Shown: one piece after another, positions 4,713 to 38,546 of the stretch
Layout: each line of letters begins with the position of its first letter
Position numbering within the stretch: position 1 is the stretch's first letter
NCBI GenBank assembly: GCA_964586915.1
Contig: CAZPJP010000008.1
Coordinates: forward strand, 1-53,350
Length of the DNA: 53,350 nucleotides
Origin: an uncultured Anaerolineales bacterium
GTDB lineage: Bacteria; Chloroflexota; Anaerolineae; B4-G1; SLSP01
Reading direction: 5' to 3'
The notes under the pieces: model-generated
What the model saw: only the letters and a program-made list of their open reading frames with translations
What the model was told of the DNA's origin: nothing
Databases searched by the model: none
Translations under genes and position numbers: made by a program

Positions 4713-4728
4713 CTCGCGCTATGCGCTT

Positions 4729-4762: not shown

Positions 4763-4872
4763 TCACTGCGTGTATGAGATAAGCCGCAGCAGGCAGACGC
4801 CTCCGGAGAGGCCTGCGGAAGTCAACCTGCATTCTGCGCGTTGTCCCCTACCGTGCCAAGCAAGGAGAGACT

Positions 4873-6438: not shown

Positions 6439-6450
6439 AGAAGGAGTCCG

Positions 6451-7755
6451 ATGAACGAGAATCAAGAGGCTGAGACCCAGGCCAAACGAGATCAGGCTCA
6501 GGAGCGAGCAGAGGAGAGCGCCCAGGAGTCTTCGGAGCCAGGGGAGGCGGGCGAGCGCGGACTCAGCGCCAAAGACCTACTGGTCCCTGCGCTGGCGATT
6601 GTGACGGCCTTGATCATCGGAGCCCTGGTGATTATCTTCACCGACGAGAGTGTCTACGAGGCTTTTCAGCAGGGCGTCTTTCAAGGCATTTTCCGGGCCT
6701 TCTCGGTGATCGGTAGGGCCTACGGCGCGTTCTTCACAGGGGCCTTTGGAAATCCGGTTCGGATCGTGGAAGCGATCCTTAGCGGCAATCCAGCTCAGAT
6801 TCGGCGGGCCCTCTTTCCCATCACCGAGACATTACGCATCTCGACACCGTACATCTTCGCCGGGTTGGCCGTCGCTCTGGGCTTTCAGGGCGGGCTCTTC
6901 AACATCGGCGCCGAAGGACAGTACTTCATAGCCGGGTTGACCTCGGTCTACGTCGGCTACGCCGTCACGGGGTTGCCGCAGATCATCCACCTTCCGCTGG
7001 CGCTGCTGGCAGGGATGGTGGGCGGCGGACTCTGGGCCGCCATCCCGGGCTATCTGAAGGGCAAGACTGGCGCCCACGAGGTCATCAACACGATTATGAT
7101 GAACTACATCGCGTTCCGACTCGCGGAGTTCCTCCTCGATGTCGGCGGGCCGATGGCACGGGGGGATGGACGACCAGTGAGCCCTAGCATCCAGCCGAGC
7201 GCTTACCTTCCCCAGTTCTTCCCGAATCGGGTCGAGCTGACCGTCAATGCAGGGTTTCTGCTGGCGCTAGCGATGGCATGGGTCGTCTGGTGGGTGCTCT
7301 ACAAGACGACACTGGGCTACGAGCTGCGCACCGTAGGGCATAGTTCGAACGCCGCCCGCTACGCCGGGATCAGTGTACCTCGAAGCTTCGTCATCACCAT
7401 GGCGATGAGCGGTGCGCTCGCCGGGCTCTCGGCGGCGACGGACGTTCTCGGTGTTCTCCGCTTTATGCCGAACGCGTTCGCCTCAGGCTACGGCTTCGAC
7501 GCGATAGCTTTGGCTCTGCTGGGCAAGAGCCACCCGCTCGGCGTGGTCTTGGCGTCGTTGCTCTTCGGCGCGCTGAGAGCCGGAGCGCGGAATATGCAGG
7601 GCATCGCGCGAGTTCCCATCGACATCACCTCCATTCTGCAGGGCCTCATTATCGTCTTTGTCGCGGCACCAGAGATCATCCGGGCGATCTATCGCCTGCG
7701 ACAGCGCTTGGAGGGGGAGGAGATTGCTTTGACGCGCGGGTGGGGCGAGGGGTAG
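6451..7755 (+). CDS. ABC transporter permease (BMP/nucleoside system), with acidic N-terminal extension
   Basis: Multi-TM protein with FNIGAEGQ motif typical of CUT2 permeases. GGAG RBS present; sits 12 nt after the ATPase gene. Confidence 0.87.
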   Translation: MNENQEAETQAKRDQAQERAEESAQESSEPGEAGERGLSAKDLLVPALAIVTALIIGALVIIFTDESVYEAFQQGVFQGIFRAFSVIGRAYGAFFTGAFGNPVRIVEAILSGNPAQIRRALFPITETLRISTPYIFAGLAVALGFQGGLFNIGAEGQYFIAGLTSVYVGYAVTGLPQIIHLPLALLAGMVGGGLWAAIPGYLKGKTGAHEVINTIMMNYIAFRLAEFLLDVGGPMARGDGRPVSPSIQPSAYLPQFFPNRVELTVNAGFLLALAMAWVVWWVLYKTTLGYELRTVGHSSNAARYAGISVPRSFVITMAMSGALAGLSAATDVLGVLRFMPNAFASGYGFDAIALALLGKSHPLGVVLASLLFGALRAGARNMQGIARVPIDITSILQGLIIVFVAAPEIIRAIYRLRQRLEGEEIALTRGWGEG

Positions 7756-7870
7756 GATTTGGAGAGCGCCTTACTTTGCACACCACGGCCCATAGGACAC
7801 GCGGTGCTTGGTTTCATCGGCGGTTGGCCATCGGCCGGCACACACCTGACCACTGCAATCAGGAGAAGCT

Positions 7871-9124
7871 ATGAATGAATCAGAGACTACACCGAGGTCC
7901 CGACGTCGAGCCCGCGGGATGGGCATTGCATTCCTTATCTTTGCTATAGCTATGCTTGCCCTCTTCTTGCCAACGACCCGGGCGGGTGAACGGACAACCT
8001 TCGTCTTCCAAACTGCCCGCGACGCGGTCGTGATCCTTGACAACCTGGTCTTCTCCACCCGTTTGGGGATCTACCTTATGGCAGCAGCGGCTGCAGCGGC
8101 TGGGGGCTGGCAGCTAGCAAAAGGCTTTGAACATCAGGATGTCGTCCTCGGTGTGGTAGCCGGTCTCTTTGTCTTGGCCTTCCTGACCTGGGCCGCCCGC
8201 GGGCGATCGATGAACCTCACGGGTATGCTGCAGTCCTCCCTGCTCCGCTCTATTCCTATCTTATTGGCCGCGCTAAGCGGCGTGATGTGCGAGCGCAGCG
8301 GCGTCATCAATATTGGCATCGAAGGTATGATGCTCACCGGAGCGTTTGCCGCAGCCTTATTCGGAAGCATAGCCGGCAGCATCTGGATCGGTCTGTTAGG
8401 TGCACTCCTCAGCAGTGCGCTGATGGCGGCTCTGTTGGCGGTACTTGCCATCCGCTACAAGGTCGACCAGATTATTGCGGGCACAGCGATCAACATCCTG
8501 GCGACGGGAATGACGGGCTATTTCAGCTCGCGCTATCTGCAGCGGGACGCTACCCTCAACAGCCCCCCCACCTTCCCGCTGGCGCCGATTCCCGCCCTGT
8601 CGCGGATCCCAATCCTCGGTCCGGCGTTCTTCAATCACACCCTTCTAGTCTACGTGGCTCTGATCGTGGTGATTGTTATCCAAGTGGTGCTCTTCTTCAC
8701 CAAGTGGGGATTGCGGACGCGAGCGGTGGGTGAGCATCCCCGCGCCGCAGACACGTTGGGCGTCAACGTCTTCCGGGTACGCTACGTTCAGGTTATCCTC
8801 GGCGGCGCGGTCGCAGGGTTGGGTGGTGCTTATCTCGTACTCAGCTCTGTGGCGCGCTTCAACGAGCTGATGACGGCGGGGAAGGGCTTCATCGGCCTGG
8901 CAGCCATGATCTTCGGGAAGTGGAACCCCGTGGGCGCGCTGGGCGCGTCCCTCATCTTCGGGTTCGCTGACTCACTACAGACCCGATTGGCCATCCTGTC
9001 CGTTCCAATCCCTTCGCAGTTCCTGCTGATGGCGCCCTATCTGGTGACAATGATCGTGCTTGCCGGCGTCGTCGGTCAATCCCGCGCCCCGGCAGCCGAT
9101 GGTGAGCCTTACGAAAAGGAATAA
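7871..9124 (+). CDS. ABC transporter permease (second permease of the BMP/nucleoside system)
   Basis: Multi-TM protein with INIGIEGMML motif, paralogous to the previous permease. AGGAG RBS present. Confidence 0.87.
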   Translation: MNESETTPRSRRRARGMGIAFLIFAIAMLALFLPTTRAGERTTFVFQTARDAVVILDNLVFSTRLGIYLMAAAAAAAGGWQLAKGFEHQDVVLGVVAGLFVLAFLTWAARGRSMNLTGMLQSSLLRSIPILLAALSGVMCERSGVINIGIEGMMLTGAFAAALFGSIAGSIWIGLLGALLSSALMAALLAVLAIRYKVDQIIAGTAINILATGMTGYFSSRYLQRDATLNSPPTFPLAPIPALSRIPILGPAFFNHTLLVYVALIVVIVIQVVLFFTKWGLRTRAVGEHPRAADTLGVNVFRVRYVQVILGGAVAGLGGAYLVLSSVARFNELMTAGKGFIGLAAMIFGKWNPVGALGASLIFGFADSLQTRLAILSVPIPSQFLLMAPYLVTMIVLAGVVGQSRAPAADGEPYEKE

Positions 9125-9147
9125 GTGCTGCAGCGCGCCGTCCCTGA

Positions 9148-10551
9148 ATGAACACCCTCAACGAGCCAGACTGGCCTGAGGCCTTCGTCGTTCGCATGCG
9201 GGGTTGGCTGGGTGAGGAAGCCGACGAGCTTTTCGCAGCCTTAGCCAAACGCGATTACGGACTGCGACTGAATCCGGCACGCGGAGATCTGACAGCGCTC
9301 AGAGCGAGCCTGCCCTGGCCCACAGAGCCGGTCCCGTGGTGCCCCGAGGGCTTTCTCGTTGACGCAGCTGCTGATCCACCGCGGCTCGGCGCTCACGCCT
9401 ATCACACCGCCGGCGTCTATTATCTCCAGGACCCAAGCGCGATGGCAGCCGCGGTGCTGCTCGACCCCCAGCCTGGCGAGTGGGTGCTCGATCTGGCCGC
9501 GGCGCCCGGCGGCAAGGCATCTCACTTGGCGGCGCGTATGCAGGGCGAAGGCGTGCTCGTGGCTAACGACGTCTCTCGGGGACGCGCCAGCGTGCTGGCG
9601 ATGAACCTCGAACGGATGGGGGCCACAAACGCCCTGATAACAAACGCCTACCCCAGTCAGCTCAGCGCGGCGTGGGGCGGCCTGTTCGACGCGATGCTGA
9701 TCGACGCGCCTTGCTCTGGAGAGAGCACCTTCGGCAGGGATCCACACTCCCTGGCTGCCTGGAGCGTGGAAGAGGTGACGCGATACGCTGCGCGCCAACT
9801 GCACATCGTCGATCAGGCCGCTCCGCTGGTCCGGCGTGGAGGCCAGATTCTCTACAGCACCTGCACCTTTTCACCGGAGGAGAATGAGGGCGTCATCGGA
9901 GAATTCCTCACCACGCACCCCGAATTTGAGTTGATGGACCTTCCGAAGCTCCCCGGCATGGGCCGAGGCCACCCTGAATGGGTCGGCGCTCCCGACGTGC
10001 TGCGCCAGACCGGGCGATTCTGGCCCCACAGAACATCAGGGCACGGTCACTTCTACGCCCTGTTGCGGCGAAAGGGGGACCCACCAACGGCCTTACCGGC
10101 ACGCTGGACTGAGATGGAGATACCGGGGCGGGTCCTCAATCTCTATCGGGCGACGCTGAAACCCGCCCTGCGGATCGATCCACCTGAGGAGGGTCTAATC
10201 CTGGACGACAACGACCACTGCTACATCACACCTATGGACCCGGCGCTATGGCGTCGACTTCCGGTGCTCCGTCCAGGATGGTGGGTCGCTGCGCTCCGCC
10301 ACGGCAAGATCTGGCCGGACCATGCACTGGCGATGGCGCTGAGCCCCCAGGACGTTCGCGCGTCAGTCGAGTTGACGCCGGACGATCCGCGGCTAGACCG
10401 ATACTATGAGGGCCGATCCTGGACGGACAAAGGAGCGGCGGGATACGTATTGGTCACGGTCGACGGCTTCCCTCTCGGCTGGGCAAAGCGCGACCGCGGC
10501 AAGGTGCGGAGCCGATATCCGGTGCACCTGAGACGGCAGCGCGCGGGATAG
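9148..10551 (+). CDS. rsmF: rRNA cytosine-C5 methyltransferase, RsmF/RsmB (NOL1/NOP2/Sun) family
   Basis: YLQDPSAM, LDLAAAPGGKASH (SAM site), DAPCSGE and YSTCT catalytic Cys motifs. The C-terminal extension resembles RsmF. Confidence 0.82.
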   Translation: MNTLNEPDWPEAFVVRMRGWLGEEADELFAALAKRDYGLRLNPARGDLTALRASLPWPTEPVPWCPEGFLVDAAADPPRLGAHAYHTAGVYYLQDPSAMAAAVLLDPQPGEWVLDLAAAPGGKASHLAARMQGEGVLVANDVSRGRASVLAMNLERMGATNALITNAYPSQLSAAWGGLFDAMLIDAPCSGESTFGRDPHSLAAWSVEEVTRYAARQLHIVDQAAPLVRRGGQILYSTCTFSPEENEGVIGEFLTTHPEFELMDLPKLPGMGRGHPEWVGAPDVLRQTGRFWPHRTSGHGHFYALLRRKGDPPTALPARWTEMEIPGRVLNLYRATLKPALRIDPPEEGLILDDNDHCYITPMDPALWRRLPVLRPGWWVAALRHGKIWPDHALAMALSPQDVRASVELTPDDPRLDRYYEGRSWTDKGAAGYVLVTVDGFPLGWAKRDRGKVRSRYPVHLRRQRAG

Positions 10552-10603
10552 CGTAGACAACCTCAATCGTCATCGCTATCCGACGATCCATCAGGGTTCG
10601 TGT

Positions 10604-12946
10604 TCAGTCGGCGTCGTCACCGCCAAGGATGACGCGGCGCTTGCGGCCGGCGGCAACCTGGGGACCGACCAGGCCCATCGCCTCCATCTGCTCCATCAAC
10701 CGCGCGGCACGCGGATAGCTGATATGCAAGCGCCGCTGGATGCCTGAGGTGGAGACTTTACCGCGGCTCTTGGCGTAAGCGATGGCCTGCTCCAGCAGAT
10801 CGGCGTCCTCCCCCAAGCCCTCGATCCGCCAGTGCTCAGGACCTTGGGCCTCGGCGATCTCCTCCCACGGAGGCTTCGAGGGGGTCGCCCCGGCCTCCTG
10901 CTGCCAAAACCGGATAATCTTCTCGAGCTCATCTTCAGAGATATAGCATCCCTGGATCCGCACCGGCGCCGAGGCGTCCGGTGGCAGAAAGAGGAGGTCC
11001 CCGTCGCCCAGCAGGTTTTCAGCGCCTGGGGTATCCAGAATGACGCGCGAATCGACACCGCTGGTGGTCGCAAAACTCACCCGGGCAGGGAAATTGGCTT
11101 TGATCAGGCCGGTGACCACGTCTGTGCTGGGCCGCTGAGTAGCCACGACCAAATGGATGCCCGTGGCTCGAGCCATTTGTGCAATCCGCGTCAGCGTGCG
11201 CTCCGTCTCCTCCGGCTCCGACATCATCAGATCGGCCAGCTCATCTATGAGAACCACGATGCGCGGGAGCGGTTCCTCGTCGTCGTCGCCGCCTGTGGGC
11301 TTCTTCACAGTATCCGACGCTCGCCGTCGCGCCAAGCGGGCATTGTAGTCGTCGAGGTTGCGCGCCACGGATTTAGCAAAGAGCTTGTAACGCTCATCCA
11401 TCTCGCGAGCAACCCATCGCAGAACGCGCAGCGCTTGCTCCACCTCAGTCTCGGCACTGCCCAGCAGATGGGGCAGGCCGTTGAGGTGACTGAGCTCGAC
11501 AATCTTGGGATCGATGGCGATGAGACTCAGCTCTTCAGGTCGATTGTGCATGACCAAGCTGGCCGCGAGGGCCTTGACAAAGACCGACTTGCCGCTTCCG
11601 GTGGTTCCCGCCACCAGAAGGTGAGGCATACGCGACAGGTCCGCCACCTGAGGAGCTCCAGCCACATCGAGACCCAGCGCAAAACAGAGCGGCTGGCCAC
11701 ACTTCTGAAAGGCATCGCTCTCCAGAACCGATCTAAGACGCACTAGGGTTGTATCAGCGTTGGGGACCTCAATGCCCACGACAGCACGACCGGGTACCGG
11801 AGCCTCCACGCGCAGCGAGCGCGCTGCCAAGGCCAACGCAAGATCATCGGACAGCCTCGCGATCTGGCTAACCCGTACCTTGCGCTGGCGTCCGCCGTCG
11901 GAGCCACGACTGATGTACCCCGGTGAGACGCCAAACTGGGTCACCGTTGGACCCGGCCGGACCTCTGTCACCCGCGTCGGAACCCCAAACTGCTCCAATG
12001 TCTGCTCGATAATCCGACTCTTGCGCTCGATCTCCTGCGGATCCATGCCCGCGGTCGTAGACTGTTCCAGTAGCTTAAGTGGGACGATATGGAGATCCGA
12101 CTTGCTGCGTCGGGGTTTCGAGATGGGCTGAGGTTCATGGATCTTCGGCTTCGCGCGGCTATCCCGAGCGCCGGTCTGAGACCGCGACGAGGGTACTGAC
12201 CTCTGCGGTCGTGCAGGGGCAGACACGGCGACACCCGCTGCGGGTCTTTGGATAGTGGACTCGGACTGGAAAGCATGTGAACGCCGGGCCGCCTTCCGCT
12301 CCGCCGCCCTGGCAGCCCGTTCAGCGCGCCAGGCCGCCCACACCTCCGACAGGCGACGTCCAAAGATCTCCAGATCCTTCCGAGAGAGGTCAAAGGCCAA
12401 CCCGAGGCCAATCACGACCACGAGCCCCATAAGGATGCCCGTGATCAGCGGACCAAAATAGTCCGCCAAGAAGAGATAGAGTCCCCATCCCACAACCCCG
12501 CCCCCCTTGCCAGATTCCACTAAGCGCCAAGAGTGCCGGTTGATCAAGGCATAGGTCAGGGTCTGCAGACCCAGAAGGATCATCTCCAGGCCCAGAATGG
12601 GCCGCCACCGCCAGGCCGTCTCCTGATGAACAAGATGACGGAGCCAGAGCAGCCCCAGCGCCGTCAGGAGCGCGGCAACGGGATACGCCGCCCATCCAAA
12701 GGCAAAGACCAAGGCCCGCACCCAGGCCCCGATGACGGCGCCAGAGTTGACGCCGGGGATGAGGGTGACGAACGTAACAGTGCCAAAGGCGATGAGGACC
12801 AGGGCCAACACCTGCTGACCCGCAGGCCCGGTGGCCCAGGACAACAGCCATTGACCGAGTCGCTGGGGTAGCGACTCGGTCCGCGACGCCTTTGAGGATG
12901 AGGAACGCCGGCGCCGGGCCATACTTCCATATTTACGCCTAGCCAT
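10604..12946 (-). CDS. ftsK: DNA translocase FtsK/SpoIIIE
   Basis: N-terminal TM helices, a Pro/Arg/Ser-rich linker, Walker A GTTGSGKS, and a C-terminal gamma winged helix (ISYPRAARLMEQMEAMGLVGP). Confidence 0.93.
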   Translation of the reverse strand: MARRKYGSMARRRRSSSSKASRTESLPQRLGQWLLSWATGPAGQQVLALVLIAFGTVTFVTLIPGVNSGAVIGAWVRALVFAFGWAAYPVAALLTALGLLWLRHLVHQETAWRWRPILGLEMILLGLQTLTYALINRHSWRLVESGKGGGVVGWGLYLFLADYFGPLITGILMGLVVVIGLGLAFDLSRKDLEIFGRRLSEVWAAWRAERAARAAERKAARRSHAFQSESTIQRPAAGVAVSAPARPQRSVPSSRSQTGARDSRAKPKIHEPQPISKPRRSKSDLHIVPLKLLEQSTTAGMDPQEIERKSRIIEQTLEQFGVPTRVTEVRPGPTVTQFGVSPGYISRGSDGGRQRKVRVSQIARLSDDLALALAARSLRVEAPVPGRAVVGIEVPNADTTLVRLRSVLESDAFQKCGQPLCFALGLDVAGAPQVADLSRMPHLLVAGTTGSGKSVFVKALAASLVMHNRPEELSLIAIDPKIVELSHLNGLPHLLGSAETEVEQALRVLRWVAREMDERYKLFAKSVARNLDDYNARLARRRASDTVKKPTGGDDDEEPLPRIVVLIDELADLMMSEPEETERTLTRIAQMARATGIHLVVATQRPSTDVVTGLIKANFPARVSFATTSGVDSRVILDTPGAENLLGDGDLLFLPPDASAPVRIQGCYISEDELEKIIRFWQQEAGATPSKPPWEEIAEAQGPEHWRIEGLGEDADLLEQAIAYAKSRGKVSTSGIQRRLHISYPRAARLMEQMEAMGLVGPQVAAGRKRRVILGGDDAD

Positions 12947-12955
12947 TGTGCACGT

Positions 12956-13876
12956 TTATCCCGCTAGTGCTAAAGCAATACGATGATCTTCTGGTGCGAT
13001 GTCGAGAATGCGCACCGTAACGACGTCCCCGGCATCGTAGGCACCGTAGAGCTCCCCGGCGCAGGAGGCATGCGGGCACTCCGAGATGTGGAGGAGACCT
13101 TCAATGCCGTCCAGAAGCTCCACGAAGACGCCGAACCGCTCTACGCTGGCCACTGACCCGCGGACCACGTCACCGGGACTGAACCGATTCTCAACGGTGT
13201 CCCACGGATTGGGGTGCAGGCGCTTCAAGCTGAGCCCTACCCGTTGGTGTTCTAGATCGACGTTGAGAATCTTGACCCGCACGGCTTGACCTGGTTCGAC
13301 GAAATCCTGTGGGTGACGCACGCGACCCCAGGAGATCTCCGAGATGTGAACCATCCCCTCAAGAGGGCCGATATCCACAAAGGCGCCAAAGGGCCGGACG
13401 CTCGTGACAGTCCCCTCACACGTGCTCCCGATGCACAGCCACTCGGGCCACTCCGGCTCCTCCAGATCGCATTCAGCCACCTGGCGCTCGGAGAGAAGAA
13501 TACGGTTGCGGGACGGCTCGACCTCAATCAGACAGAGGCGGAGTTTCTCACCCACGTACTCAGCAAAGCACGCTTCCCGCGCATCGGGATCCGCCGGAAA
13601 CGGATAGGCGATCAGATGGGATGCGGGCACAAAACACTCGATGTCCTTCCAATAGGCAATGAGGCCGCCGCGATTGTAGCCATCAATCGTCAGGTTCAAT
13701 ATGGTATGACGCCGCTGTAACTCGCGAGCCTCATCCCAAACCTCCAGCGGAACTGCGGGCACCTCAATCCACTCCCAGGCGCTTGGGGTGTCGCCCGCGC
13801 TTATTGGACCTTCCTCCAGGAGGACCTCCCAATAGCGCTCACAAGGGGGACAATGGGCGGGGATATAATGATCCAT
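12956..13876 (-). CDS. S1 RNA-binding domain protein (about three S1 repeats) with N-terminal CPPC motif
   Basis: S1 repeat signatures (GTVTSVRPFGAFVDIG..EGMVHISE, GSVASVERFGVFVEL..IEGLLHISE). GAAGGAG lies 7 nt upstream of ATG 13876; the ORF is open to GTG 13894. Confidence 0.8.
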   Translation of the reverse strand: MDHYIPAHCPPCERYWEVLLEEGPISAGDTPSAWEWIEVPAVPLEVWDEARELQRRHTILNLTIDGYNRGGLIAYWKDIECFVPASHLIAYPFPADPDAREACFAEYVGEKLRLCLIEVEPSRNRILLSERQVAECDLEEPEWPEWLCIGSTCEGTVTSVRPFGAFVDIGPLEGMVHISEISWGRVRHPQDFVEPGQAVRVKILNVDLEHQRVGLSLKRLHPNPWDTVENRFSPGDVVRGSVASVERFGVFVELLDGIEGLLHISECPHASCAGELYGAYDAGDVVTVRILDIAPEDHRIALALAG

Positions 13877-32539: not shown

Positions 32540-34792
32540 TCACCACCAGCGATCGGCTTGTAGCTCGACGCCCCAGGAGGACAGCACCTCCGACACCTCT
32601 TCCCAGTGGCTGTCGGTGACGACGGCGAGATCGCTCGTGCCGGGAAGCGGGCGCAACCATCGATGGAGACGGGCGTCAGCCTTTCGGAGTTCCGCCAAGG
32701 CATGGGGACTGGGAAGCCGCAGCAGGCGGATATTGGCAACCTGACCGTCGCCATAGACCTTGCCCCACGCTTTGAGCCGCTTCTCCCATCCGTCGGGTAG
32801 CGGCTGCCCCGTCATCTCCTCCAACATCTCGATGATGTCCAGGGGATCGATACCCAAAGTTGCCGCGGCCCGCACCGTCTGGGGGGTCACACGCCAGCGC
32901 CCGTTATCAGATTCGGCGACACGACGCAGCGTGCCGGTCACGTAAAGGCTGGGCACAGCGGCGCGAGGCTCAAGTTCCTCCTCACGCCAGCGTATGCTTT
33001 CGAGAAGGTCAGCCTTTGGCCCCTTCGAATGAGCAGGCAGTGTGTCCAGTTCCAACAGCCGCGCTTCAACGGTGTGCATATCGTCGGGATAGAGCCAGGC
33101 GATCCGCTCCCCTAGCGGATGCAGATGGTCCTTCAGCACCGGGTCGGCCAACAAGTCAGCCATGTGCTCAGCTTCATCGACCTGGAGGATGCTGACGCTT
33201 CGGTGCACCACGATCCGCTCGTGCTGACGTCTCCATTCCTCCAGCGAACGCGTGACGTTCTGAGGAACTGGTTGGTCCGTCGCTTCCTCCAAATATGCGA
33301 GGATGGATGTAACCGTCTCATCCCGCTGGAAGGCCTCATAGACAGACTCACGGGTAATGCGATAAGTGACCACGCTCTCGTCGATCTTCTCGCGCGCAGA
33401 GAATCGCTCCAAGTTAGCCAAGACGCGCAATGGGACCGGTCCCATCGCCAACATCTGGAAATCGGGCTGCAGAATCACCTGCCAGGGCAACTCCGGTGGC
33501 CGCTCACCTGGCCGGCTGAGATGGTAGCGGCGGACCTCATCCGTCGCGCGGAGAGCTATGAGTCTGTGCTCATCCCCGACGTCCGAACCGTCGGCCTCGG
33601 CAGGCAGATAGCCCAAATCGACAACGCCCAATGCCCGGATCTCCTCCAGCGTGGTCCGCACGATACTTCGCTCTCGACGCCGCAGATTGTCCTCCACGTT
33701 TTCGCGGTAACCGCCCCCATACCAACGGAGGCTTTCGAAGACAAACTCTAGCGTCTCCTCATCGAGCGCAAGCGCACCGGGGCGCCCGCCGGTAAGCAGC
33801 GCGGAGAAGAGCGGGTAAGAGACCCACCCCACCTCGGCGATCCGACCGACCAATGTGATGATCCTGTCACGCATCTCCGAGGCCGGACGAAGCGTGACAC
33901 CCTGGTAGACGCCATAGAGACGGTCCCAGCCCAGGTCATCGGGCAAGGGGACCGCGAGGCGTCCATAGGCCCGCATCAGGTCGCGGAGCTGGCGCACCGG
34001 AGACGCACTCCAAAAGAGCGTCACAGCATCACCGGTCACGGCGGATATCGTCGATCCATCCTGTGTCACGAGGTTGAGAGCCAGCAGCATCTCATAGAGA
34101 TACGCCACGCGCTCAAGGCCGGCCTCCTCATCTAGTCCCAAAGCCTCTGCTAGCCGCCGCCGGTCGCGTTTGCCCATCTCCCCGGACTTCAGCTGGCGGG
34201 CTGACTGGCGACGGAGCTCCGCCCAGGCAAAAAAGAGCTCCCGCAGCGACTGTCGCACTTCGCCTTCGCGCACCTGCATCGAGGCCGGAACCTCAGTCCG
34301 CAGCGCTCCGGGGCAGGGCTCTGGCGGAGCAAGCTCAAAGCCCGAAAGGGCGCTACGGACCTCTTTCGGGATGCCGACGTGATAGAGTTGGTTCAGGGTT
34401 CGGAGCGTCGACGTGCCCATCGGCTCTGTCTGATTCACCACGACACCCTTCATCAAAAGGCTGCGCATGACCTCACGCACCGTCGGTCGGCCAGCAATTG
34501 TGGACTGTTCTCCAGCCTCGGCCAGTCCGGCAAGCATCAGGGGCGTGGCTATGTTCCGAAGGCTGACGGGCTCCTCAGCATTGAGAACCACGCCAAGGGC
34601 AGCGGTCTCCGCCTTGCTCAGCGAGCGAATGAAATCCCGGGATCGTGCCAACTGCGGGATCAGCCGGCCCAGCTCACTGACGAGCCAGGCTTTGCGCACC
34701 GGCGTACGGTCGGGCTCCAAGCCCAGATGATCCGCAATGGCCTGAAGCGCGTTTATGTGATAGCTCTGCAGCGAGGTCCCGAGGGACTCCAC
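32540..34792 (-). CDS. XPB-associated large protein B (750 aa) with two XPB-NTD / p52(Tfb2)-like modules
   Basis: Module 1: VILQPDFQMLA...VVTYRITRESVYEAFQRDETVTSILAYLEEATDQPVPQNVTRSLEEWRRQHERI. Module 2: RWRVTPQTVRAAATLGIDPLDIIEMLEEMTGQPLPDGWEKRLKAWGKVYG. The GTG start lies 1 nt after the stop of the upstream gene. Confidence 0.75.
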   Translation of the reverse strand: MESLGTSLQSYHINALQAIADHLGLEPDRTPVRKAWLVSELGRLIPQLARSRDFIRSLSKAETAALGVVLNAEEPVSLRNIATPLMLAGLAEAGEQSTIAGRPTVREVMRSLLMKGVVVNQTEPMGTSTLRTLNQLYHVGIPKEVRSALSGFELAPPEPCPGALRTEVPASMQVREGEVRQSLRELFFAWAELRRQSARQLKSGEMGKRDRRRLAEALGLDEEAGLERVAYLYEMLLALNLVTQDGSTISAVTGDAVTLFWSASPVRQLRDLMRAYGRLAVPLPDDLGWDRLYGVYQGVTLRPASEMRDRIITLVGRIAEVGWVSYPLFSALLTGGRPGALALDEETLEFVFESLRWYGGGYRENVEDNLRRRERSIVRTTLEEIRALGVVDLGYLPAEADGSDVGDEHRLIALRATDEVRRYHLSRPGERPPELPWQVILQPDFQMLAMGPVPLRVLANLERFSAREKIDESVVTYRITRESVYEAFQRDETVTSILAYLEEATDQPVPQNVTRSLEEWRRQHERIVVHRSVSILQVDEAEHMADLLADPVLKDHLHPLGERIAWLYPDDMHTVEARLLELDTLPAHSKGPKADLLESIRWREEELEPRAAVPSLYVTGTLRRVAESDNGRWRVTPQTVRAAATLGIDPLDIIEMLEEMTGQPLPDGWEKRLKAWGKVYGDGQVANIRLLRLPSPHALAELRKADARLHRWLRPLPGTSDLAVVTDSHWEEVSEVLSSWGVELQADRWW

Positions 34793-34793
34793 C

Positions 34794-36728
34794 TTACGAA
34801 GTCTCCTTGGGCATATATCCCTGCCGGCTCAGATCATCGAGGATGCGGTCAACATCCTCCTCCTTGAGGAAGGCGGCTTTGGGGGTCAATAGTCCCGCAA
34901 TCGAGGCCTGCAAACTGGGCAGTGAGACCTGTAGCTCCTGCATCGTGAATGCGTCGCGGGTCTCGAGCAGCGCCTGCGAGGGATAAAGACGCACGCGACC
35001 ATACCGTCCCCACCAGTTCTCCCACCAATCGACGATCTCGGGCAGCGGATCAAACCCCACACAGGTCCTCCAGGCATCCTCCAAAACAGTAGGATCCGCA
35101 CCCTTTTCGAAAGCGTGATGGAGCCTCTGCACATCCAGGCGATATCTCACCAAACTCTGAGAGAACCCGGAGGGCTTAGCCCAGCGCAGAATGAACGTCA
35201 CGAAATCCGGCGGCACCGGCGTCTGGATCTCGAGGCTTTGCTCATCCGCGAGGAAGCGCACGGCGTCCGGCGAGAGCTGGCCTGCGGCGTCGAGGACGAC
35301 CTCGCTGATCTTGCCCCAGTGTAGGTTCTGCAACCCGTGCAACCGTACGGCCGTCACGTGCTCCCGGGAAGGTCCGAGATCGACCAGCCCCAGGGCGTGA
35401 AGGGGCCCCGTGAGCATACGCTCAAGAGCGCTGTGGAGGAAAGCCGTCCAGCCTCCTTTTGCTTGATCAGGCGTCAGACCCATCAAATAGCGATGGGTGT
35501 CCGGCGTGGGAAAGAGCTCGTCCAGCCACCGATACAGATCATCAGTCGCAAGCCACGTGTTATGCGGTAGAAAGGAGAGCAGCTCAAGCAGCACCCAGCG
35601 GAGATTCGAGCAGCTCAGCGCCACCGACTCGTCGATAGAGTTAAGGCTCCAGTACCCGTGGTAAGGGCGGCGCACGCGCACGGTTCCCTCTCGCCACCAG
35701 GGCCACCACACGGCCCATTGGGATATGTTGCGGTAGAGCCGGTAAATGACGCTCACCTGCCGACCAGGCGTCAACGCCATCCAGTCATGAGCCAAATCCG
35801 CGTCCACCGTCAGCGGGCTACCCTGCCAGATGACGCCGCCTCCAACCAGCACGTGGTAGAGGAATTCCGCCCAGGCTTCTGAGGTTCCCAAAGTATCTGT
35901 CCATATTTGCAGCGCACGCTCCGCCAGTCGCGGCTCTGGCGGCCAAAGCTCGATCGTTCGCTCGCGCTCGACGTTCTCCTGCAGCCTCTCCGCATCGGCC
36001 GGCACCGGGGGCCAACAAACTACCGGCTCGGCATAGGGATACTCCGGCGCCTCCCATCTCGGCTGCGGGCGAAGCTCGAAGGTCTCCGTCTGCAACAAAC
36101 CGAGCAACTGCTGAACCTGCGCCACAATATGGCGGGGATCGGCGGCGGGCACAACCTGCTTCGGTTCCGATGAGCGGGGGAACTCGATGGTGAGCTGGGG
36201 CAGGAGCTCCATCGTTCCATACGGCACGAGAAGCTCACCATTCTCTGATTCCAGCACGAGTCCGGCTCCGACAACGCTCTGGGCCAGCTCTGGCCAGGGC
36301 GTCGAGAAATCCCTCCAGAGGGTACTGGCCTGAGGGGCGACGTAAAAGCCCTGGATACCCATGTGTAGGAGCAGATGTGTGTAGTAACGGCGCTCCTCAT
36401 CCGAGAGGCGCCCCAGTGCGTCGGCGAGGCGCGTTGAGTCGAGGAAAAGCGTAGCCAGTTGCTCCGCCAGGCCGCGACGCGTGCGTCCCCGCGGCTCACC
36501 TCCGAGCATCTCAATCTGCTCGCGCAGATGGTCCACACGCCATCCGGTCTCGACGATTTCGTCGACCATCGAGGGAACGAGATCAACCTCGTCCATCTGC
36601 CAGGAAGGATCGTAGGGATACGGGATGGGATCCGGCGCCGCCTCCCAGTGATAGCCGAGGCCCGGCTTGAGAGCCGCGTGCGCGTCCTTGATCCTGCTAC
36701 CCTCGTGTTTGATGCCCATCTTCCTCAT
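34794..36728 (-). CDS. XPB-associated large protein A (644 aa), paralogue of protein B, C-terminal XPB-NTD / p52-like module
   Basis: C-terminal LVRYRLDVQRLHHAFEKGADPTVLEDAWRTCVGFDPLPEIVDWWENWWGRYGRVRLY shares RYGRVRL with the XPB N-terminal domain. Begins 35 nt after the XPB stop. Confidence 0.7.
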   Translation of the reverse strand: MRKMGIKHEGSRIKDAHAALKPGLGYHWEAAPDPIPYPYDPSWQMDEVDLVPSMVDEIVETGWRVDHLREQIEMLGGEPRGRTRRGLAEQLATLFLDSTRLADALGRLSDEERRYYTHLLLHMGIQGFYVAPQASTLWRDFSTPWPELAQSVVGAGLVLESENGELLVPYGTMELLPQLTIEFPRSSEPKQVVPAADPRHIVAQVQQLLGLLQTETFELRPQPRWEAPEYPYAEPVVCWPPVPADAERLQENVERERTIELWPPEPRLAERALQIWTDTLGTSEAWAEFLYHVLVGGGVIWQGSPLTVDADLAHDWMALTPGRQVSVIYRLYRNISQWAVWWPWWREGTVRVRRPYHGYWSLNSIDESVALSCSNLRWVLLELLSFLPHNTWLATDDLYRWLDELFPTPDTHRYLMGLTPDQAKGGWTAFLHSALERMLTGPLHALGLVDLGPSREHVTAVRLHGLQNLHWGKISEVVLDAAGQLSPDAVRFLADEQSLEIQTPVPPDFVTFILRWAKPSGFSQSLVRYRLDVQRLHHAFEKGADPTVLEDAWRTCVGFDPLPEIVDWWENWWGRYGRVRLYPSQALLETRDAFTMQELQVSLPSLQASIAGLLTPKAAFLKEEDVDRILDDLSRQGYMPKETS

Positions 36729-36763
36729 ATCCTGCCGTCGTCTCGAGCAAGGGAATCTTCAAC

Positions 36764-38509
36764 TCACGCGCGCTGCTGCGTATGCGCCAGCGCACCAGGC
36801 ACCTCATCCCCATAGAGAATGAGATAGCGGTATCCCTGTTCGGTCAGGAAGCGTTGACGGTTAGCGCTGTAGTCCTGATCGACGGTCTCTTTCGTCACAA
36901 TACTGTAGAAATACGCCTGGCCTCCGCCGGACTTTGGCCGGAGGATACGCCCAAGGCGCTGTGCCTCCTCCTGGCGCGATCCGAAGGTCCCAGAGATCTG
37001 GATTGCGACGTTGGCATCAGGCAGATCGATGGAGAAGTTAGCCACTTTCGACACGACGAGCGTGGTTACCTCACCGGCTCGGAACTGCTCGTAAAGGCGC
37101 TCACGCTCCTCGACCTTCGTCTTGCCCGTGATGATAGGATAATCGTATCGCTCGGCGATCCGCTCGAGCTGGTCCAGGTACATCCCTATGACAAGAATGC
37201 GATCGCCTTTATGGTAGGTCAAAAGCTCGTCGAGGATCTCCAGTTTGGCTGAGTTATCGGCAGCCACACGGTATTTCTGGCGTGTCTCCGCCATAATATA
37301 GTCGATGCGTTCGGGCTCCGGCATCGGCACGCGAATCTCGTAACAGATCGCCGGCGCGATCCACCCTTGGCGCTCCAGGTCATGCCACGGCACGTCGTAC
37401 TTCTTGGGACCGATCAGCGAGAAGACATCCTCCTCGCGCTCATCCTCGCGCACCAAGGTCGCCGTCAAGCCCAGACGCCGGCGCGCCTGAAGCTCCGCCG
37501 TGATGCGGAAGACCGGGGCCGGCAGTAGATGCACCTCATCGTAGATGATCAAGCCCCAGTCCCCCTCGCTAAAGAGGTCGAAGTGGGGATATTGCTCAGA
37601 GAGCGGCAGGTCGCCATTGTCTTTGGTGCCGCGCTTGCGGTGGGTGAGAATCTGATACGTCGTCACCGTGACCGGCCGAAGTTGCTTGCGCTGGCCAGTG
37701 TACTCGCCGATCTGGTCCTCAGGGATCGTGGTTTTGTCGATGAGTTCCTCACGCCACTGTCGCGCAGCCACGGTACTGGGCGTGAGGATCAAGGTATGCT
37801 GTTGGATCCGCTCCATCGCCAGCATCCCAACAATGGTCTTACCAGCGCCGCACGGCAGGACGACGGCACCGGCCCCCCCCGCCTCAGATCCATCGGCCCA
37901 CCAGACATCCGCCGCGTCCCGCTGATACCCACGAATTACGAAAGGTTCACCGCTGAACATTGTCTCGCGTAGCTCGAAGGCCAGGGGTGCGCCAACGGTA
38001 TAACCGACGAGATCCTCCGCAGGGTAACCGGCTTTCACCAACGCCTGCTTGACGTGACCACGTCGATCTGCAGGCACCTGCACCGTATGCGGGCCGACAC
38101 GCTCCAGAACGTAAGGCTTGAAATAGCGATTACGCTCCAGCTCGACCAACAGCAGGGGCTCATCGGACATCAGACGCAGCCGAGTCTCGTCATAAGGGTC
38201 GCGGGTCAGGCGCACTCGCCCGTAGCGGGCAATCACGTCGCGGATCTCGAAGATGACGTTGTCCGGAAGCGGGTACTTCGCAAAGCGCTGCAGCCCATCG
38301 ATGATCTCCTCTGCGTCCAGCCCCGCTGCGGCGGCGTTCCACAGAGAAAGCGGCGAAAGTCGGTAGGTGTGTATGTACTCGGGGCTCTTCTCGAGCTCGG
38401 CAAAGCGGGAGAGGTGGTCCCGAGCGTCCTCGTAATCCGGGCTGTTGACCTCCAGGAGAACCGTGCGATCCCCCTGGACAATGAGCGGTGCGTCGACTCT
38501 GTAGTCCAT
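36764..38509 (-). CDS. XPB/Ssl2 (ERCC3/RAD25)-type SF2 DNA helicase/translocase
   Basis: N-terminal damage-recognition-like domain (LIVQGDRTVLLEV...HTYRLSPLSLWNAAAAGL...PLPDNV...ARYGRVRL). Motif I PCGAGKT, motif II YDEVH, LGLTATLVRED (the XPB RED motif), motif VI GSRQEEAQRLGRILR. Confidence 0.9.
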   Translation of the reverse strand: MDYRVDAPLIVQGDRTVLLEVNSPDYEDARDHLSRFAELEKSPEYIHTYRLSPLSLWNAAAAGLDAEEIIDGLQRFAKYPLPDNVIFEIRDVIARYGRVRLTRDPYDETRLRLMSDEPLLLVELERNRYFKPYVLERVGPHTVQVPADRRGHVKQALVKAGYPAEDLVGYTVGAPLAFELRETMFSGEPFVIRGYQRDAADVWWADGSEAGGAGAVVLPCGAGKTIVGMLAMERIQQHTLILTPSTVAARQWREELIDKTTIPEDQIGEYTGQRKQLRPVTVTTYQILTHRKRGTKDNGDLPLSEQYPHFDLFSEGDWGLIIYDEVHLLPAPVFRITAELQARRRLGLTATLVREDEREEDVFSLIGPKKYDVPWHDLERQGWIAPAICYEIRVPMPEPERIDYIMAETRQKYRVAADNSAKLEILDELLTYHKGDRILVIGMYLDQLERIAERYDYPIITGKTKVEERERLYEQFRAGEVTTLVVSKVANFSIDLPDANVAIQISGTFGSRQEEAQRLGRILRPKSGGGQAYFYSIVTKETVDQDYSANRQRFLTEQGYRYLILYGDEVPGALAHTQQRA

Positions 38510-38518: not shown

Positions 38519-38546
38519 ATTGTACCTGACAGAGGTGCTTAGTCAA
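38519..38546 (-). promoter_or_regulatory. Candidate promoter of the XPB operon, giving a near-leaderless mRNA
   Basis: On the minus strand: TTGACT (38546-38541), 16-nt spacer, TACAAT (38524-38519). Only 9 nt (gtatcagat, no Shine-Dalgarno) separate the -10 from ATG 38509. Confidence 0.45.

What the first reader, a model, noticed from the sequence alone, without database searches (positions are those of the whole stretch)
32540..38509. XPB/Ssl2-type helicase operon with two large paralogous partners built from XPB-NTD / p52(Tfb2)-like modules: a bacterial 'mini-TFIIH-core-like' three-protein system
What the sequence shows:
- An intact XPB-type SF2 helicase (PCGAGKT, DEVH, LGLTATLVRED with the XPB-specific RED motif, motif VI) lies at 36764-38509.
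- It is followed on the same strand by a 644-aa ORF (35-nt gap) and a 750-aa ORF whose GTG start lies 1 nt after the TAA stop, implying translational coupling.
- One ~90-aa module recurs four times across the three proteins:
  - XPB N-terminus: HTYRLSPLSLWNAAAAGLDAEEIIDGLQRFAKYPLPDNVIFEIRDVIARYGRVRL.
  - 644-aa C-terminus: LVRYRLDVQRLHHAFEKGADPTVLEDAWRTCVGFDPLPEIVDWWENWWGRYGRVRL.
  - 750-aa, first copy: VTYRITRESVYEAFQRDETVTSILAYLEEATDQPVPQNVTRSLEEWRRQHERI.
  - 750-aa, second copy: RWRVTPQTVRAAATLGIDPLDIIEMLEEMTGQPLPDGWEKRLKAWGKVYG.

Established background:
- This pattern (h-x-Y-R-h-T-x-x-S-h-x-x-A...G...I-I-x-x-L......P-h-P-x-x-V...I-x-x-W) matches the conserved core of eukaryotic p52/Tfb2.
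- In TFIIH, p52 pairs with the structurally similar XPB N-terminal domain and stimulates XPB.
- Archaeal XPB instead partners with the Bax1 nuclease.

Inference:
- Bacterial XPB homologues are known, and as I recall mycobacterial XPB has one large uncharacterised neighbour.
- To my knowledge, the function of such partners, and a version with two paralogous partners, has not been described.
- I could not spot an obvious nuclease, ATPase or DNA-binding motif in either partner.
Basis: partly seen in the sequence, partly recalled or inferred. Interest (0 to 1): 0.8.

Follow-up and report, generated by a model that had tools for sequence, protein, structure and literature searches.

The report
Bacterial XPB helicase with p52-like partners
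A Chloroflexota chromosome carries a three-gene operon for an XPB DNA translocase and two paralogous, non-enzymatic proteins that are homologues of p52/Tfb2, the eukaryotic TFIIH subunit that switches XPB on, although the literature searched says bacteria have no such partner.

Summary
Three co-directional genes on the minus strand encode XPB (36764-38509), a 644-aa protein A (34794-36728) and a 750-aa protein B (32540-34792).

- **Spacing:** the XPB-A gap is 35 nt. B's GTG lies 1 nt after A's TAA.
- **Paralogy:** A and B are paralogues (hhalign 98.7%, E 3e-16).
- **Fold:** confident AlphaFold models of both find TFIIH p52/Tfb2 chains as best PDB matches (E 7e-10 and 6e-9, about 560-600 aligned columns). 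XPB N-terminal regions come next.
- **Sequence:** 22 of 39 B homologues hit Pfam Tfb2, all below its cut-off.
- **Repeated module:** it is about 145 aa, a clutch-like domain plus a small end domain. It occurs four times: XPB N-terminus, A C-terminus and twice in B.
- **Synteny:** of 80 Chloroflexota species loci, 54 carry XPB with both A and B. Seven more are cut by the contig end after A. No other neighbour is conserved.
- **Other phyla:** loci with one B-like partner encode a free 65-99-aa copy of the end domain. Single partners occur beside or near XPB in Deinococcus, Actinomycetota and Paenibacillus. Two cyanobacterial plasmids carry an A-like protein just upstream of XPB.

Most likely this is a bacterial counterpart of the XPB-p52-p8 module. 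Complex formation and biological role are untested, and I found no paper describing it.

The parts
38519..38546 (-). Promoter-like site (TTGACT-16-TACAAT, 10 of 12 matches) ending 10 nt upstream of the XPB ATG
   Evidence: Consensus scan. This is a pattern match only, not evidence of function.
36764..38509 (-). XPB/Ssl2-type SF2 DNA translocase/helicase gene, 581 aa
   Evidence: NCBIfam NF045503 at 849 bits against a cut-off of 610. Pfam domains. It is closer to eukaryotic XPB (276-284 bits) than to archaeal XPB (121-167 bits).
38210..38485 (-). XPB N-terminal clutch-type domain (aa 9-100), module copy 1
   Evidence: Pfam Helicase_C_3 covers aa 9-137. hhalign against the B and A modules.
37985..38209 (-). 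XPB DRD-like region (aa 101-175). It aligns colinearly with the end domains of A and B and ends in KAGYPAE.
   Evidence: hhalign alignments run through to XPB residues 162-165. The small-protein HMM hits this region weakly in two other XPBs.
36815..37939 (-). XPB helicase core (aa 191-565): Walker A PCGAGKT, DEVH, RED motif, motif VI
   Evidence: Translation. Pfam ResIII and ERCC3_RAD25_C.
34794..36728 (-). Protein A, 644 aa: a p52/Tfb2-like paralogue with one C-terminal clutch plus end-domain unit
   Evidence: AlphaFold2 pLDDT 88.1, pTM 0.81. Top Foldseek hits are p52 chains at E 5.7e-9. Paralogous to B over A 62-643. 21 homologues, all those named being Anaerolineae.
34986..35237 (-). A clutch-like domain (aa 498-581), module copy 2, with the Trp-rich WWENWWGRYG helix
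   Evidence: Pfam Helicase_C_3 at E 7e-4. hhalign against XPB-N: 95%, E 3.7e-8. Invariant residues listed.
34797..34985 (-). A C-terminal end domain (aa 582-644, ends in RQGYMPKE): homologue of the free small protein, candidate p8/p52-CTD-like dimerisation domain
   Evidence: hhalign small-protein family vs A C-terminal domain: 94.5%, E 8.4e-8. The small-protein HMM hits the extreme C-termini of A proteins. Weak Foldseek hits to p8/Tfb5 and the Tfb2 C-terminal domain, TMt 0.5-0.6, E about 1.5.
34803..34808 (-). AAGGAG Shine-Dalgarno for B, inside the 3' end of A, 10 nt before the GTG. With the 1-nt stop-start spacing it suggests translational coupling.
   Evidence: Sequence. The A-to-B gap has a median of 1 nt across 51 loci.
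32540..34792 (-). Protein B, 750 aa, GTG start: a p52/Tfb2-like protein with two clutch plus end-domain units
   Evidence: AlphaFold2 pLDDT 84.9. Top Foldseek hits are p52/Tfb2 chains at E 7e-10. The profile's best PDB sequence hit is Tfb2, E 0.005. 62 homologues, named 'helicase-associated domain-containing protein'. 361 clusters at 50% identity with E<=1e-30.
33479..34792 (-). B N-terminal helical/winged-helix-like region (aa 1-438), corresponding to p52 NTD plus MD1
   Evidence: Foldseek alignments of about 560-600 columns span nearly all of p52. Pfam Tfb2 matches in B homologues start about 50 aa upstream of the clutch, at profile positions 239-358.
33212..33478 (-). B clutch-like domain 1 (aa 439-527), module copy 3, with the invariant ILQPDFQxLAxGP strand
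   Evidence: Pfam Helicase_C_3 at E 1.2e-28. Aligned to Tfb2 'GSIIIETNYRLYAY...'. Invariant residues.
33023..33211 (-). B end domain 1 (aa 528-590)
   Evidence: hhalign against the free small protein: 97.3%, E 2.7e-11.
32741..33007 (-). B clutch-like domain 2 (aa 596-684), module copy 4
   Evidence: Second Helicase_C_3 stretch. hhalign module 1 vs module 2: 98.7%, E 3e-16.
32543..32740 (-). B end domain 2 (aa 685-750)
   Evidence: hhalign B end domain 1 vs end domain 2: 96.1%, E 3e-9. Beta-alpha-beta-beta-alpha topology in the model.

Best explanation
The region is a self-contained housekeeping operon for a bacterial counterpart of the XPB-p52-p8 translocase module of eukaryotic TFIIH.

**Components**
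- XPB is the ATP-driven double-stranded-DNA translocase. It is of the eukaryote-like type: N-terminal clutch-type domain, DRD-like domain and two RecA domains with the RED motif.
- A and B are ancient paralogues with no catalytic domain. Both are homologues of p52/Tfb2.
- Each has an N-terminal helical/winged-helix region, a clutch-like domain and a small beta-alpha-beta-beta-alpha end domain. B carries a second clutch plus end-domain unit.

**Proposed mechanism (inferred by analogy with TFIIH)**
- A partner's clutch-like domain packs sheet-to-sheet against the XPB N-terminal domain.
- The end domains of A and B pair with each other, as the p52 C-terminal domain pairs with p8, and sit against RecA2.
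- This would hold XPB in an ATPase-competent but rate-limited state.
- The partners' N-terminal regions would anchor the motor to DNA or to another protein, so that translocation opens or twists DNA.
- Where A is absent, a free 65-99-aa end-domain protein would take the p8-like place.

**Biological role**
- The most likely role is DNA repair or another DNA-opening task in normal chromosome maintenance.

**What is shown and what is inferred**
- Shown: homology, paralogy, domain repeats, operon structure and conserved synteny.
- Inferred: complex formation, stoichiometry, ATPase control and the cellular role.
For: **XPB identity**
- NCBIfam and Pfam assignments.
- More similar to eukaryotic than to archaeal XPB.

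**A and B are paralogues**
- hhalign 98.7%, E 2.8e-16 over 516 columns.

**p52 homology**
- Foldseek top hits for both confident models are p52/Tfb2 chains: E 7e-10 and 5.7e-9, probability 1.0. Chain identities checked.
- The B profile's best PDB sequence hit is Tfb2.
- 22 of 39 B homologues hit Pfam Tfb2. The matches start about 50 aa before the clutch, a stretch XPB's own N-terminal domain does not share.

**Fourfold two-domain module**.

**The B strand aligned to the p52 strand that contacts XPB is invariant**
- Q442, P443, L448, A449, G451 and P452.
- The contact role of this strand in p52 comes from PMC7708078.

**Synteny**
- 51 XPB-A-B, 3 A-B-XPB and 7 truncated XPB-A loci among 80 species loci with XPB identity 58-86%.
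- Median A-to-B gap 1 nt.
- No other conserved neighbour.

**Free end-domain protein**
- Found only in loci lacking A.
- In metagenomes it abuts a B-like gene in 26 of 32 loci.

**Partners beside or near XPB in other phyla**
- Deinococcota, Actinomycetota, Bacillota and Cyanobacteriota.

**Housekeeping context**
- ClpB/C, FtsK, S1, LeuRS, RecF and PrmC in the window.

**Background on p52/p8 control of XPB**
- PMC6422496 and PMC7708078.
Against: - No interaction was predicted or measured.
- Pfam Tfb2 scores are all below the gathering cut-off: best 31.5 against 34.5 bits, and 12.5 bits for the window's B. A never hits Tfb2.
- Foldseek TM-scores are low (0.17-0.34, rmsd about 20 A) because the domains are arranged differently. 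The N-terminal two-thirds therefore rest on local 3Di similarity only.
- The p8-like reading of the end domain has no sequence support in Pfam or PDB. Its Foldseek support is non-significant (E about 1.5).
- 9 of 66 informative loci have XPB without a detectable partner within 4 kb or more downstream.
- Many small-plus-B pairs lack an adjacent XPB.
- XPB has one N-terminal domain while A and B together offer three clutch-like domains, so the simple 1:1 TFIIH analogy cannot be the whole story.
- No repair gene is linked, so the cellular role is a guess.
Confidence: 0.6

Rival explanations
1. The complex is a transcription-linked motor. A and B tether XPB to RNA polymerase or to a sigma factor, to help open particular promoters or to remove stalled polymerase. 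This would be the transcription side of TFIIH rather than its repair side.
For: - XPB-p52 opens promoters in eukaryotes (PMC6422496).
- The partners have large N-terminal regions with no assigned binding partner.
- In Tsukamurella a sigma-70 family gene lies between the partner gene and XPB.
Against: - The sigma-factor link is a single anecdotal locus.
- No RNA polymerase or sigma gene is conserved next to XPB in the 80 Chloroflexota loci.
- Bacterial RNA polymerase opens promoters without ATP (established knowledge).
Confidence: 0.15
2. The operon is an anti-phage or anti-plasmid defence system. XPB would translocate on foreign DNA and A/B would act as sensors or scaffolds.
For: - Many defence systems pair an SF2 helicase with large uncharacterised proteins.
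- XPB gives partial hits to PADLOC PbeA helicase models (92 bits).
- In cyanobacteria and Deinococcus the genes sit on large plasmids. Two of the three cyanobacterial records that carry XPB were inspected, and there the genes lie close to toxin-antitoxin or IS elements.
Against: - A and B hit no PADLOC model. The XPB hits cover only the generic helicase core, against 849 bits to the XPB equivalog.
- No effector domain such as a nuclease is present.
- The window is core chromosome.
- XPB is 58-87% identical across a whole class, with fixed gene order, which is not how defence islands behave.
- No B homologue was found in 50,697 phage records.
Confidence: 0.07
3. A and B share ancestry with p52 and XPB domains but do not bind XPB. 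They would act on their own, for example as DNA-binding or structural proteins, and are co-transcribed only for co-regulation.
For: - Small-plus-B pairs often occur without an adjacent XPB.
- Some XPB genes have no partner nearby.
- In Actinomycetota the partner can be several kb away or on the other strand.
Against: - Tight operon structure with stop-start coupling is conserved in 51 loci.
- The only domain common to all partner types is the one that mediates XPB binding in TFIIH (PMC6422496).
- The predicted interface strand is invariant in the B family.
Confidence: 0.1

Closest known systems
XPB-p52-p8 sub-module of eukaryotic TFIIH (human GTF2H4/p52, yeast Tfb2; p8/Tfb5)
   Same: - An XPB of the same domain type (N-terminal domain, DRD-like domain, RecA1/2, RED motif).
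- Partners whose predicted structures match p52 over nearly its whole length.
- A clutch-like domain homologous to the XPB N-terminal domain.
- A small terminal domain that also exists as a free protein of about 70 aa, as the p52 C-terminal domain and p8 do.
- No catalytic domain in the partners.
   Different: - There are two paralogous p52-like proteins, three in some loci, instead of one.
- B has a duplicated clutch plus end-domain unit.
- The partners are 644-750 aa, against about 460-510 aa for p52.
- No p34, p44, p62 or XPD counterparts are linked, so the N-terminal regions cannot have their TFIIH binding partners.
- Sequence scores fall below Pfam Tfb2's cut-off.
- The genes form a bacterial operon.
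Archaeal XPB-Bax1 helicase-nuclease pair
   Same: An XPB homologue encoded next to, and working with, a dedicated partner protein (PMC7672443).
   Different: - Bax1 is an XPG-like nuclease. A and B have no nuclease domain.
- According to PMC3353954, the archaeal A. fulgidus XPB appears to lack the standard XPB N-terminal domain.
- Archaeal XPBs in the PDB are more distant from the window's XPB: 121-167 bits against 276-284 bits for eukaryotic XPB.
Mycobacterial and other actinobacterial XPB (Rv0861c), studied as a stand-alone enzyme
   Same: The same XPB type. [quoted passage not shown] Actinomycetota records here show a 'helicase-associated domain-containing protein' near XPB.
   Different: - The published work treats XPB as acting alone. 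[quoted passage not shown]
- In the Actinomycetota loci seen here there is one partner, not always co-directional.
- That Rv0862c itself is the partner is from memory and was not tested.
NCBI/Pfam 'helicase-associated domain-containing protein' (PF13625 Helicase_C_3)
   Same: B and its relatives already carry this automatic name. The domain is the clutch-like / XPB N-terminal domain.
   Different: - The name records one domain only.
- It does not say that the whole protein is p52-like, that it pairs with XPB, or that a paralogue A (annotated 'hypothetical') and a small end-domain protein belong to the same system.

Membership tests
XPB/Ssl2/Rad25 helicase (NCBIfam NF045503 repair_heli_XPB) | Whole-protein score above the curated cut-off | tested here: met
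   849.2 bits against a cut-off of 610, covering model positions 1-547 of 548.
XPB/Ssl2/Rad25 helicase (NCBIfam NF045503 repair_heli_XPB) | SF2 motifs I, II and VI plus the XPB-specific RED motif after motif III | tested here: met
   PCGAGKT, DEVH, LGLTATLVRED and QRLGRILR are in the translation. They are invariant in 13 XPBs.
XPB/Ssl2/Rad25 helicase (NCBIfam NF045503 repair_heli_XPB) | Eukaryote-type N-terminal domain (Pfam PF13625) | tested here: met
   120.8 bits against a cut-off of 34.2, residues 9-137.
p52/Tfb2 (Pfam PF03849) | Sequence score above Pfam's gathering cut-off (34.5 bits) | tested here: not met
   Window B scores 12.5 bits. The best B homologue scores 31.5 bits. 22 of 39 hit at E<=0.01, all below the cut-off. 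A family: no hit.
p52/Tfb2 (Pfam PF03849) | Overall fold and domain order of p52 (NTD, MD1, clutch/MD2, CTD) | tested here: met
   Foldseek top hits for both models are p52/Tfb2 chains: E 7e-10 and 5.7e-9, probability 1.0, 560-600 columns. Caveat: TM 0.17-0.34 because the domain arrangement differs.
p52/Tfb2 (Pfam PF03849) | Clutch domain homologous to the XPB N-terminal domain | tested here: met
   Pfam Helicase_C_3 in A and B. hhalign against XPB-N gives 95-98%. Residue-level alignment to Tfb2 MD2.
p52/Tfb2 (Pfam PF03849) | C-terminal dimerisation domain with the p8 fold | tested here: inconclusive
   Beta-alpha-beta-beta-alpha end domains follow each clutch. Only weak Foldseek hits to p8/Tfb5 and the Tfb2 C-terminal domain (E 1.4-2, TMt 0.5-0.6). 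No sequence hit.
p52/Tfb2 (Pfam PF03849) | Binds XPB and stimulates or limits its ATPase | not testable with these tools
   Needs multimer prediction or biochemistry. Only synteny and an invariant interface strand support it.
p52/Tfb2 (Pfam PF03849) | N-terminal region anchors to p34/p62 within a TFIIH core | tested here: not met
   No conserved neighbour other than XPB, A and B in 80 loci. Only the neighbourhood was examined. The genomes were not searched for p34, p62, p44 or XPD homologues.
p8/Tfb5 | Free protein of about 70 aa with the same fold as its partner's C-terminal domain, encoded or assembled with p52 | tested here: inconclusive
   The window has no free small gene. A's last 63 aa are homologous to a free 65-99-aa protein found in A-less loci. 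That protein abuts B-like genes in metagenomes. Its fold was not modelled and it has no sequence similarity to Tfb5.
Archaeal XPB-Bax1 system | Partner is an XPG-like nuclease | tested here: not met
   No nuclease or any catalytic domain in A or B. Their fold matches are to p52, not to Bax1.
Known anti-phage defence systems (PADLOC-DB) | Component proteins match defence-system models | tested here: not met
   A and B: no hit. XPB: only generic helicase-core matches (PbeA 92 bits).

The most novel reading that the evidence does not exclude
Bacteria have a genuine XPB-p52-p8-type machine that is old and diversified there: one to three p52 paralogues, a free or fused p8-like domain, and presence in at least five phyla. 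The XPB N-terminal region (N-terminal domain plus DRD-like domain), the p52 C-terminal region (clutch plus C-terminal domain) and p8 would all derive from one two-domain unit. Archaeal XPBs in the PDB are more distant from this XPB than eukaryotic ones are, and archaeal XPB works with Bax1 rather than a p52-like partner. The 'bottom lobe' of TFIIH would then have come to eukaryotes from bacteria rather than from the archaeal ancestor.
Probability: 0.25. Interest if true: 0.9.

Novelty: new variant of a known kind. Interest (0 to 1): 0.72.

Why it matters
**What it changes**
- The role of bacterial XPB has stayed unclear. A 2026 review still calls the function of XPB in archaea and bacteria elusive.
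- The only detailed biochemical study in the searched literature assumes XPB acts alone, because no other TFIIH subunit homologue was known in bacteria.
- Here XPB is shown to be encoded with p52 homologues and a p8-like domain. That gives the bacterial N-terminal domain a reason to exist.
- It predicts that in-vitro work on XPB alone misses its regulation.

**What it makes possible**
- It offers a small, soluble, possibly thermostable bacterial model for the clutch mechanism behind XPB and TTD-A disease mutations.
- It opens a testable question about where the XPB-p52-p8 part of TFIIH came from.

Tried and rejected
**Searches that found nothing**
- Sequence search of the A profile against PDB: no hit even at E 10.
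- Pfam and PDB sequence searches with the end domains and small proteins: nothing, or only spurious de novo TIM-barrel hits. The p8 link therefore stays structural and positional only.
- A possible SAP/HeH-like DNA-binding motif at the N-termini of A and B ('YHINALQAIADHLGLEP..RK'): no Pfam support at E up to 10, so it was dropped.
- PADLOC: no defence-family membership.
- Rfam and tRNA scans of the window: nothing.
- tblastn of B against phages and of A against plasmids: no match.
- Eight literature searches for any description of bacterial p52-like XPB partners: none found.

**Leads that did not pan out**
- A conserved third component or nuclease: clustering of flanking ORFs in 80 loci found nothing shared by more than 12 closely related loci.
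- The listing of cluster members, used to get taxonomy for distant B relatives, returned no names.
- The 99-aa gene next to the Actinomyces partner looked like another small end-domain protein. It is unrelated and looks like a membrane protein.
- The weak AAA_22 hit in B (E 0.008) was dismissed as chance, because it overlaps the clutch domain.

**Limits of the census**
- The genome-collection scan with XPB returned only the 80 best loci, which carry mostly Chloroflexota labels. It is therefore a census within that phylum, not across bacteria.

Full report
**1. Observation**

The minus strand carries three consecutive ORFs:

| Gene | Coordinates | Length | Start |
|---|---|---|---|
| XPB | 36764-38509 | 581 aa | ATG |
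| A | 34794-36728 | 644 aa | ATG |
| B | 32540-34792 | 750 aa | GTG |

- XPB's TGA and A's ATG are 35 nt apart.
- A's TAA (34796-34794) is followed by one base and then B's GTG. An AAGGAG lies 10 nt upstream of that GTG, inside A.
- A promoter-like TTGACT-16-TACAAT ends 10 nt before the XPB ATG. A separate promoter-like site precedes the next gene downstream, a TPR protein. Both are pattern matches only.
- The rest of the window is ordinary chromosome: ClpB/C-type chaperone, FtsK, ribosomal protein S1, LeuRS, RecF, glucan phosphorylase and PrmC. Composition is even. There are no tRNA or Rfam hits.
- Homologues place the window in Anaerolineae, Chloroflexota.

**2. XPB**

- The first protein is an unambiguous XPB: NCBIfam repair_heli_XPB at 849 bits against a cut-off of 610.
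- Pfam finds Helicase_C_3 (9-137), ResIII and ERCC3_RAD25_C.
- Against PDB sequences it is nearer to eukaryotic XPB (276-284 bits, one alignment running 4-565) than to archaeal XPB (167 and 121 bits).
- That search returned only eukaryotic and archaeal XPB chains, so no bacterial XPB structure appears to be in the PDB.

**3. The partners are paralogues and p52 homologues**

*Families*
- A has 21 detectable homologues. All that carry a name are Anaerolineae 'hypothetical proteins'.
- B has 62 homologues, named 'helicase-associated domain-containing protein'. Many carry precomputed Pfam Tfb2 hits.
- Profile-profile comparison aligns A 62-643 with B 10-589: 98.7%, E 2.8e-16. B therefore equals A plus a further C-terminal unit.

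*Sequence evidence for p52*
- The B profile's best PDB sequence match is Chaetomium Tfb2 (6trs_A, E 0.005). XPB N-terminal domains follow.
- 22 of 39 B homologues hit Pfam Tfb2 (best E 1.1e-7) over profile positions 239-358. This region begins about 50 residues before the clutch domain, so it goes beyond the fold that p52 shares with the XPB N-terminal domain.
- All of these scores are below Pfam's cut-off.

*Structural evidence for p52*
- AlphaFold2 models are confident: B pLDDT 84.9, A pLDDT 88.1 with pTM 0.81.
- Foldseek against the PDB puts p52/Tfb2 chains of many TFIIH structures first for both proteins. B: 8ebs_D at E 7e-10. A: 8ebs_D at E 5.7e-9. Probability is 1.0, with 560-600 aligned columns against chains of about 450 residues.
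- XPB chains come next, at E 1e-5 to 1e-3 over 170-290 columns.
- One search confirmed that 8ebt_D and 7o4i_2 are p52/TFB2.
- TM-scores are low (0.17-0.34) because the domains are arranged differently. Homology of the N-terminal two-thirds therefore rests on local structural similarity.
- Neither protein has any catalytic domain.

**4. The repeated module**

- The unit is longer than stated. XPB 9-162 aligns colinearly with B 439-584 and XPB 18-165 with A 498-641.
- It consists of the clutch-like domain plus a beta-alpha-beta-beta-alpha end domain of about 60 aa. The end domain closes with KAGYPAE in XPB and RQGYMPKE in A.
- B has two such units (98.7%, E 3e-16 between them).
- In the alignment to Tfb2, B's invariant strand ILQPDFQxLAxGP lies on Tfb2's IIIETNYRLYAY. 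That Tfb2 strand carries the residues E359, R363 and Y365, which were chosen for mutagenesis as contacts with the XPB N-terminal extension; E359K was shown to prevent XPB activation (PMC7708078).

**5. Synteny**

A scan of one genome per species with an XPB alignment found at least 578 loci. The 80 best are labelled mostly as Chloroflexota, with XPB identity 58-86%. Profiles of A, B and XPB on their ORFs give:

| Arrangement | Loci |
|---|---|
| XPB-A-B | 51 |
| A-B-XPB | 3 |
| XPB-A, then contig end | 7 |
| XPB-small-B | 3 |
| No partner within 4 kb or more downstream | 9 |
| Uninformative | 7 |

- The A-to-B gap has a median of 1 nt, most often -4 to +3, so stop-start coupling is conserved.
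- XPB is far more conserved than its partners. On one contig, XPB is 86% identical, A 54% and B 51%.
- No other gene family is conserved next to XPB.
- The B profile finds 361 clusters at E<=1e-30 among 1.84 billion representative proteins.
- In annotated records a Helicase_C_3 protein lies beside or near XPB:
  - Deinococcus: downstream of XPB.
  - Paenibacillus: overlapping the XPB gene.
  - Tsukamurella, Actinomyces and Nocardia: nearby, not always on the same strand.
  - Two cyanobacterial plasmids: an A-like 622-624-aa protein directly upstream of XPB.

**6. A small protein that mirrors p8**

- In the loci with only a B-like partner, the roughly 200-nt gap after XPB encodes a 65-71-aa protein. 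These loci are L049, L056 and L067. In Deinococcus the equivalent protein is 99 aa.
- It is homologous to B's first end domain (97.3%, E 2.7e-11) and to A's last 60 residues (94.5%, E 8.4e-8).
- Its HMM finds free copies only in those A-less loci. Elsewhere it hits the extreme C-termini of A proteins and the first end domain of B proteins. It also hits the DRD region of two XPBs weakly.
- In metagenomes it has 110 relatives. In 27 of 32 loci with enough flank a large ORF abuts it, and 26 of those match the B profile. XPB is directly upstream in 10 of 27.
- This parallels p52 C-terminal domain and p8, which share a fold and dimerise (PMC7708078).
- Direct support for a p8 fold is weak: non-significant Foldseek hits of model A to p8/Tfb5 and the Tfb2 C-terminal domain, and no sequence similarity.

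**7. Mechanism**

- In TFIIH the p52 clutch and the XPB N-terminal domain form a pseudo-symmetric dimer. The p52 C-terminal domain with p8 cradles RecA2. Together they activate and also limit the XPB ATPase (PMC6422496; PMC7708078).
- The same parts are present here, so the best-supported reading is a heteromeric XPB-A-B translocase built on the same principle.
- The partners' N-terminal regions would serve as an anchor that lets a translocase open DNA.
- Shown: homology, paralogy, module repeats, operon and synteny.
- Inferred: binding, stoichiometry, ATPase control and the repair role.
- Rivals are given with their evidence: a transcription-linked motor, a defence system, and independent function. 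Defence is disfavoured.

**8. Comparison and novelty**

- The system works like the XPB-p52-p8 module and is homologous to it. By sequence criteria A and B are not members of Pfam Tfb2.
- The differences from p52 are:
  - two or three paralogues per locus instead of one;
  - a duplicated clutch plus end-domain unit in B;
  - larger proteins;
[quoted passage not shown] - A 2026 review still calls the function of XPB in archaea and bacteria elusive.
- Eight searches found no description of these partners.
- Databases already flag the single domain through the name 'helicase-associated domain-containing protein'. This is therefore a new variant of a known kind, not a new category.

**9. Verdict**

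- Interest is high for TFIIH and nucleotide-excision-repair researchers and for bacterial DNA-repair researchers.
- It is limited by the absence of any interaction or functional test.

Noticed in passing
L049 11668-11883; L056 11689-11886; L067 11659-11868; L082 (Deinococcus sp. QL22 plasmid) 8762-9061: Small genes of 65-99 aa lie between XPB and a single B-like partner. They were below the 80-aa minimum of my first ORF extraction. The Deinococcus copy is annotated only as a hypothetical protein. They are homologous to the end domains of A and B. 110 relatives exist in metagenomes, usually abutting a B-like gene.
   Followed up: yes
L035 262-2100; L036 6496-8337; L055 176-1888; L056 8147-9889; L067 8313-9983; L079 8178-9983; L031 11830-13677; L083 5129-6997; L087 4125-5999: A third partner type of about 556-624 aa. 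The copies that hit Pfam carry one C-terminal Helicase_C_3 domain, below the cut-off; the L056, L067 and L079 copies give no Pfam hit and match only the B profile weakly. It sits directly upstream of XPB, or between XPB and A in L031. Some loci therefore carry three p52-like paralogues. On two cyanobacterial plasmids it is the only partner.
   Followed up: partly
L042 2489-4483 and 4612-7161; L053 10001-11977 and 12166-14508; also L051, L052, L069, L076: XPB genes with no detectable partner nearby have a C-terminal extension of about 80-100 aa. In two loci they are followed by a Ser/Thr protein kinase fused to WD40 repeats.
   Followed up: no
window 38519-38546 (minus strand): The promoter-like site ends only 10 nt before the XPB start codon. 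That would give a very short or absent leader, and no Shine-Dalgarno is evident there.
   Followed up: no
window 34998-35027 (A residues 568-577): The last helix of A's clutch-like domain is unusually rich in tryptophan (WWENWWGRYG; W568, W569 and W573 are invariant in the family). XPB has IRDVIARYG there and B has LEEWRRQHERI.
   Followed up: no
window 36720-36728: A's start codon is ambiguous. The longest ORF starts at MRKMGIK, but the identical database protein (P0001, 641 aa) starts three codons later, at MGIK.
   Followed up: partly
inside XPB on the opposite strand, e.g. L024 588-1256; window 36782-37252 and 37529-37972: Long antisense ORFs within XPB recur in 72 of 80 loci. This is most likely a by-product of strong XPB conservation and G+C-rich codon usage, not a gene.
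   Followed up: partly
L081 (Tsukamurella) 1318-8662; L085 (Actinomyces) 2565-7647; L086 (Nocardia) 6001-13640: In Actinomycetota the partner gene is near XPB but separated from it or on the other strand. In Tsukamurella a sigma-70 family factor gene lies between them. Several of these 'plasmid' records look like chromosome pieces (0.4-11.9 Mb, housekeeping genes).
   Followed up: partly
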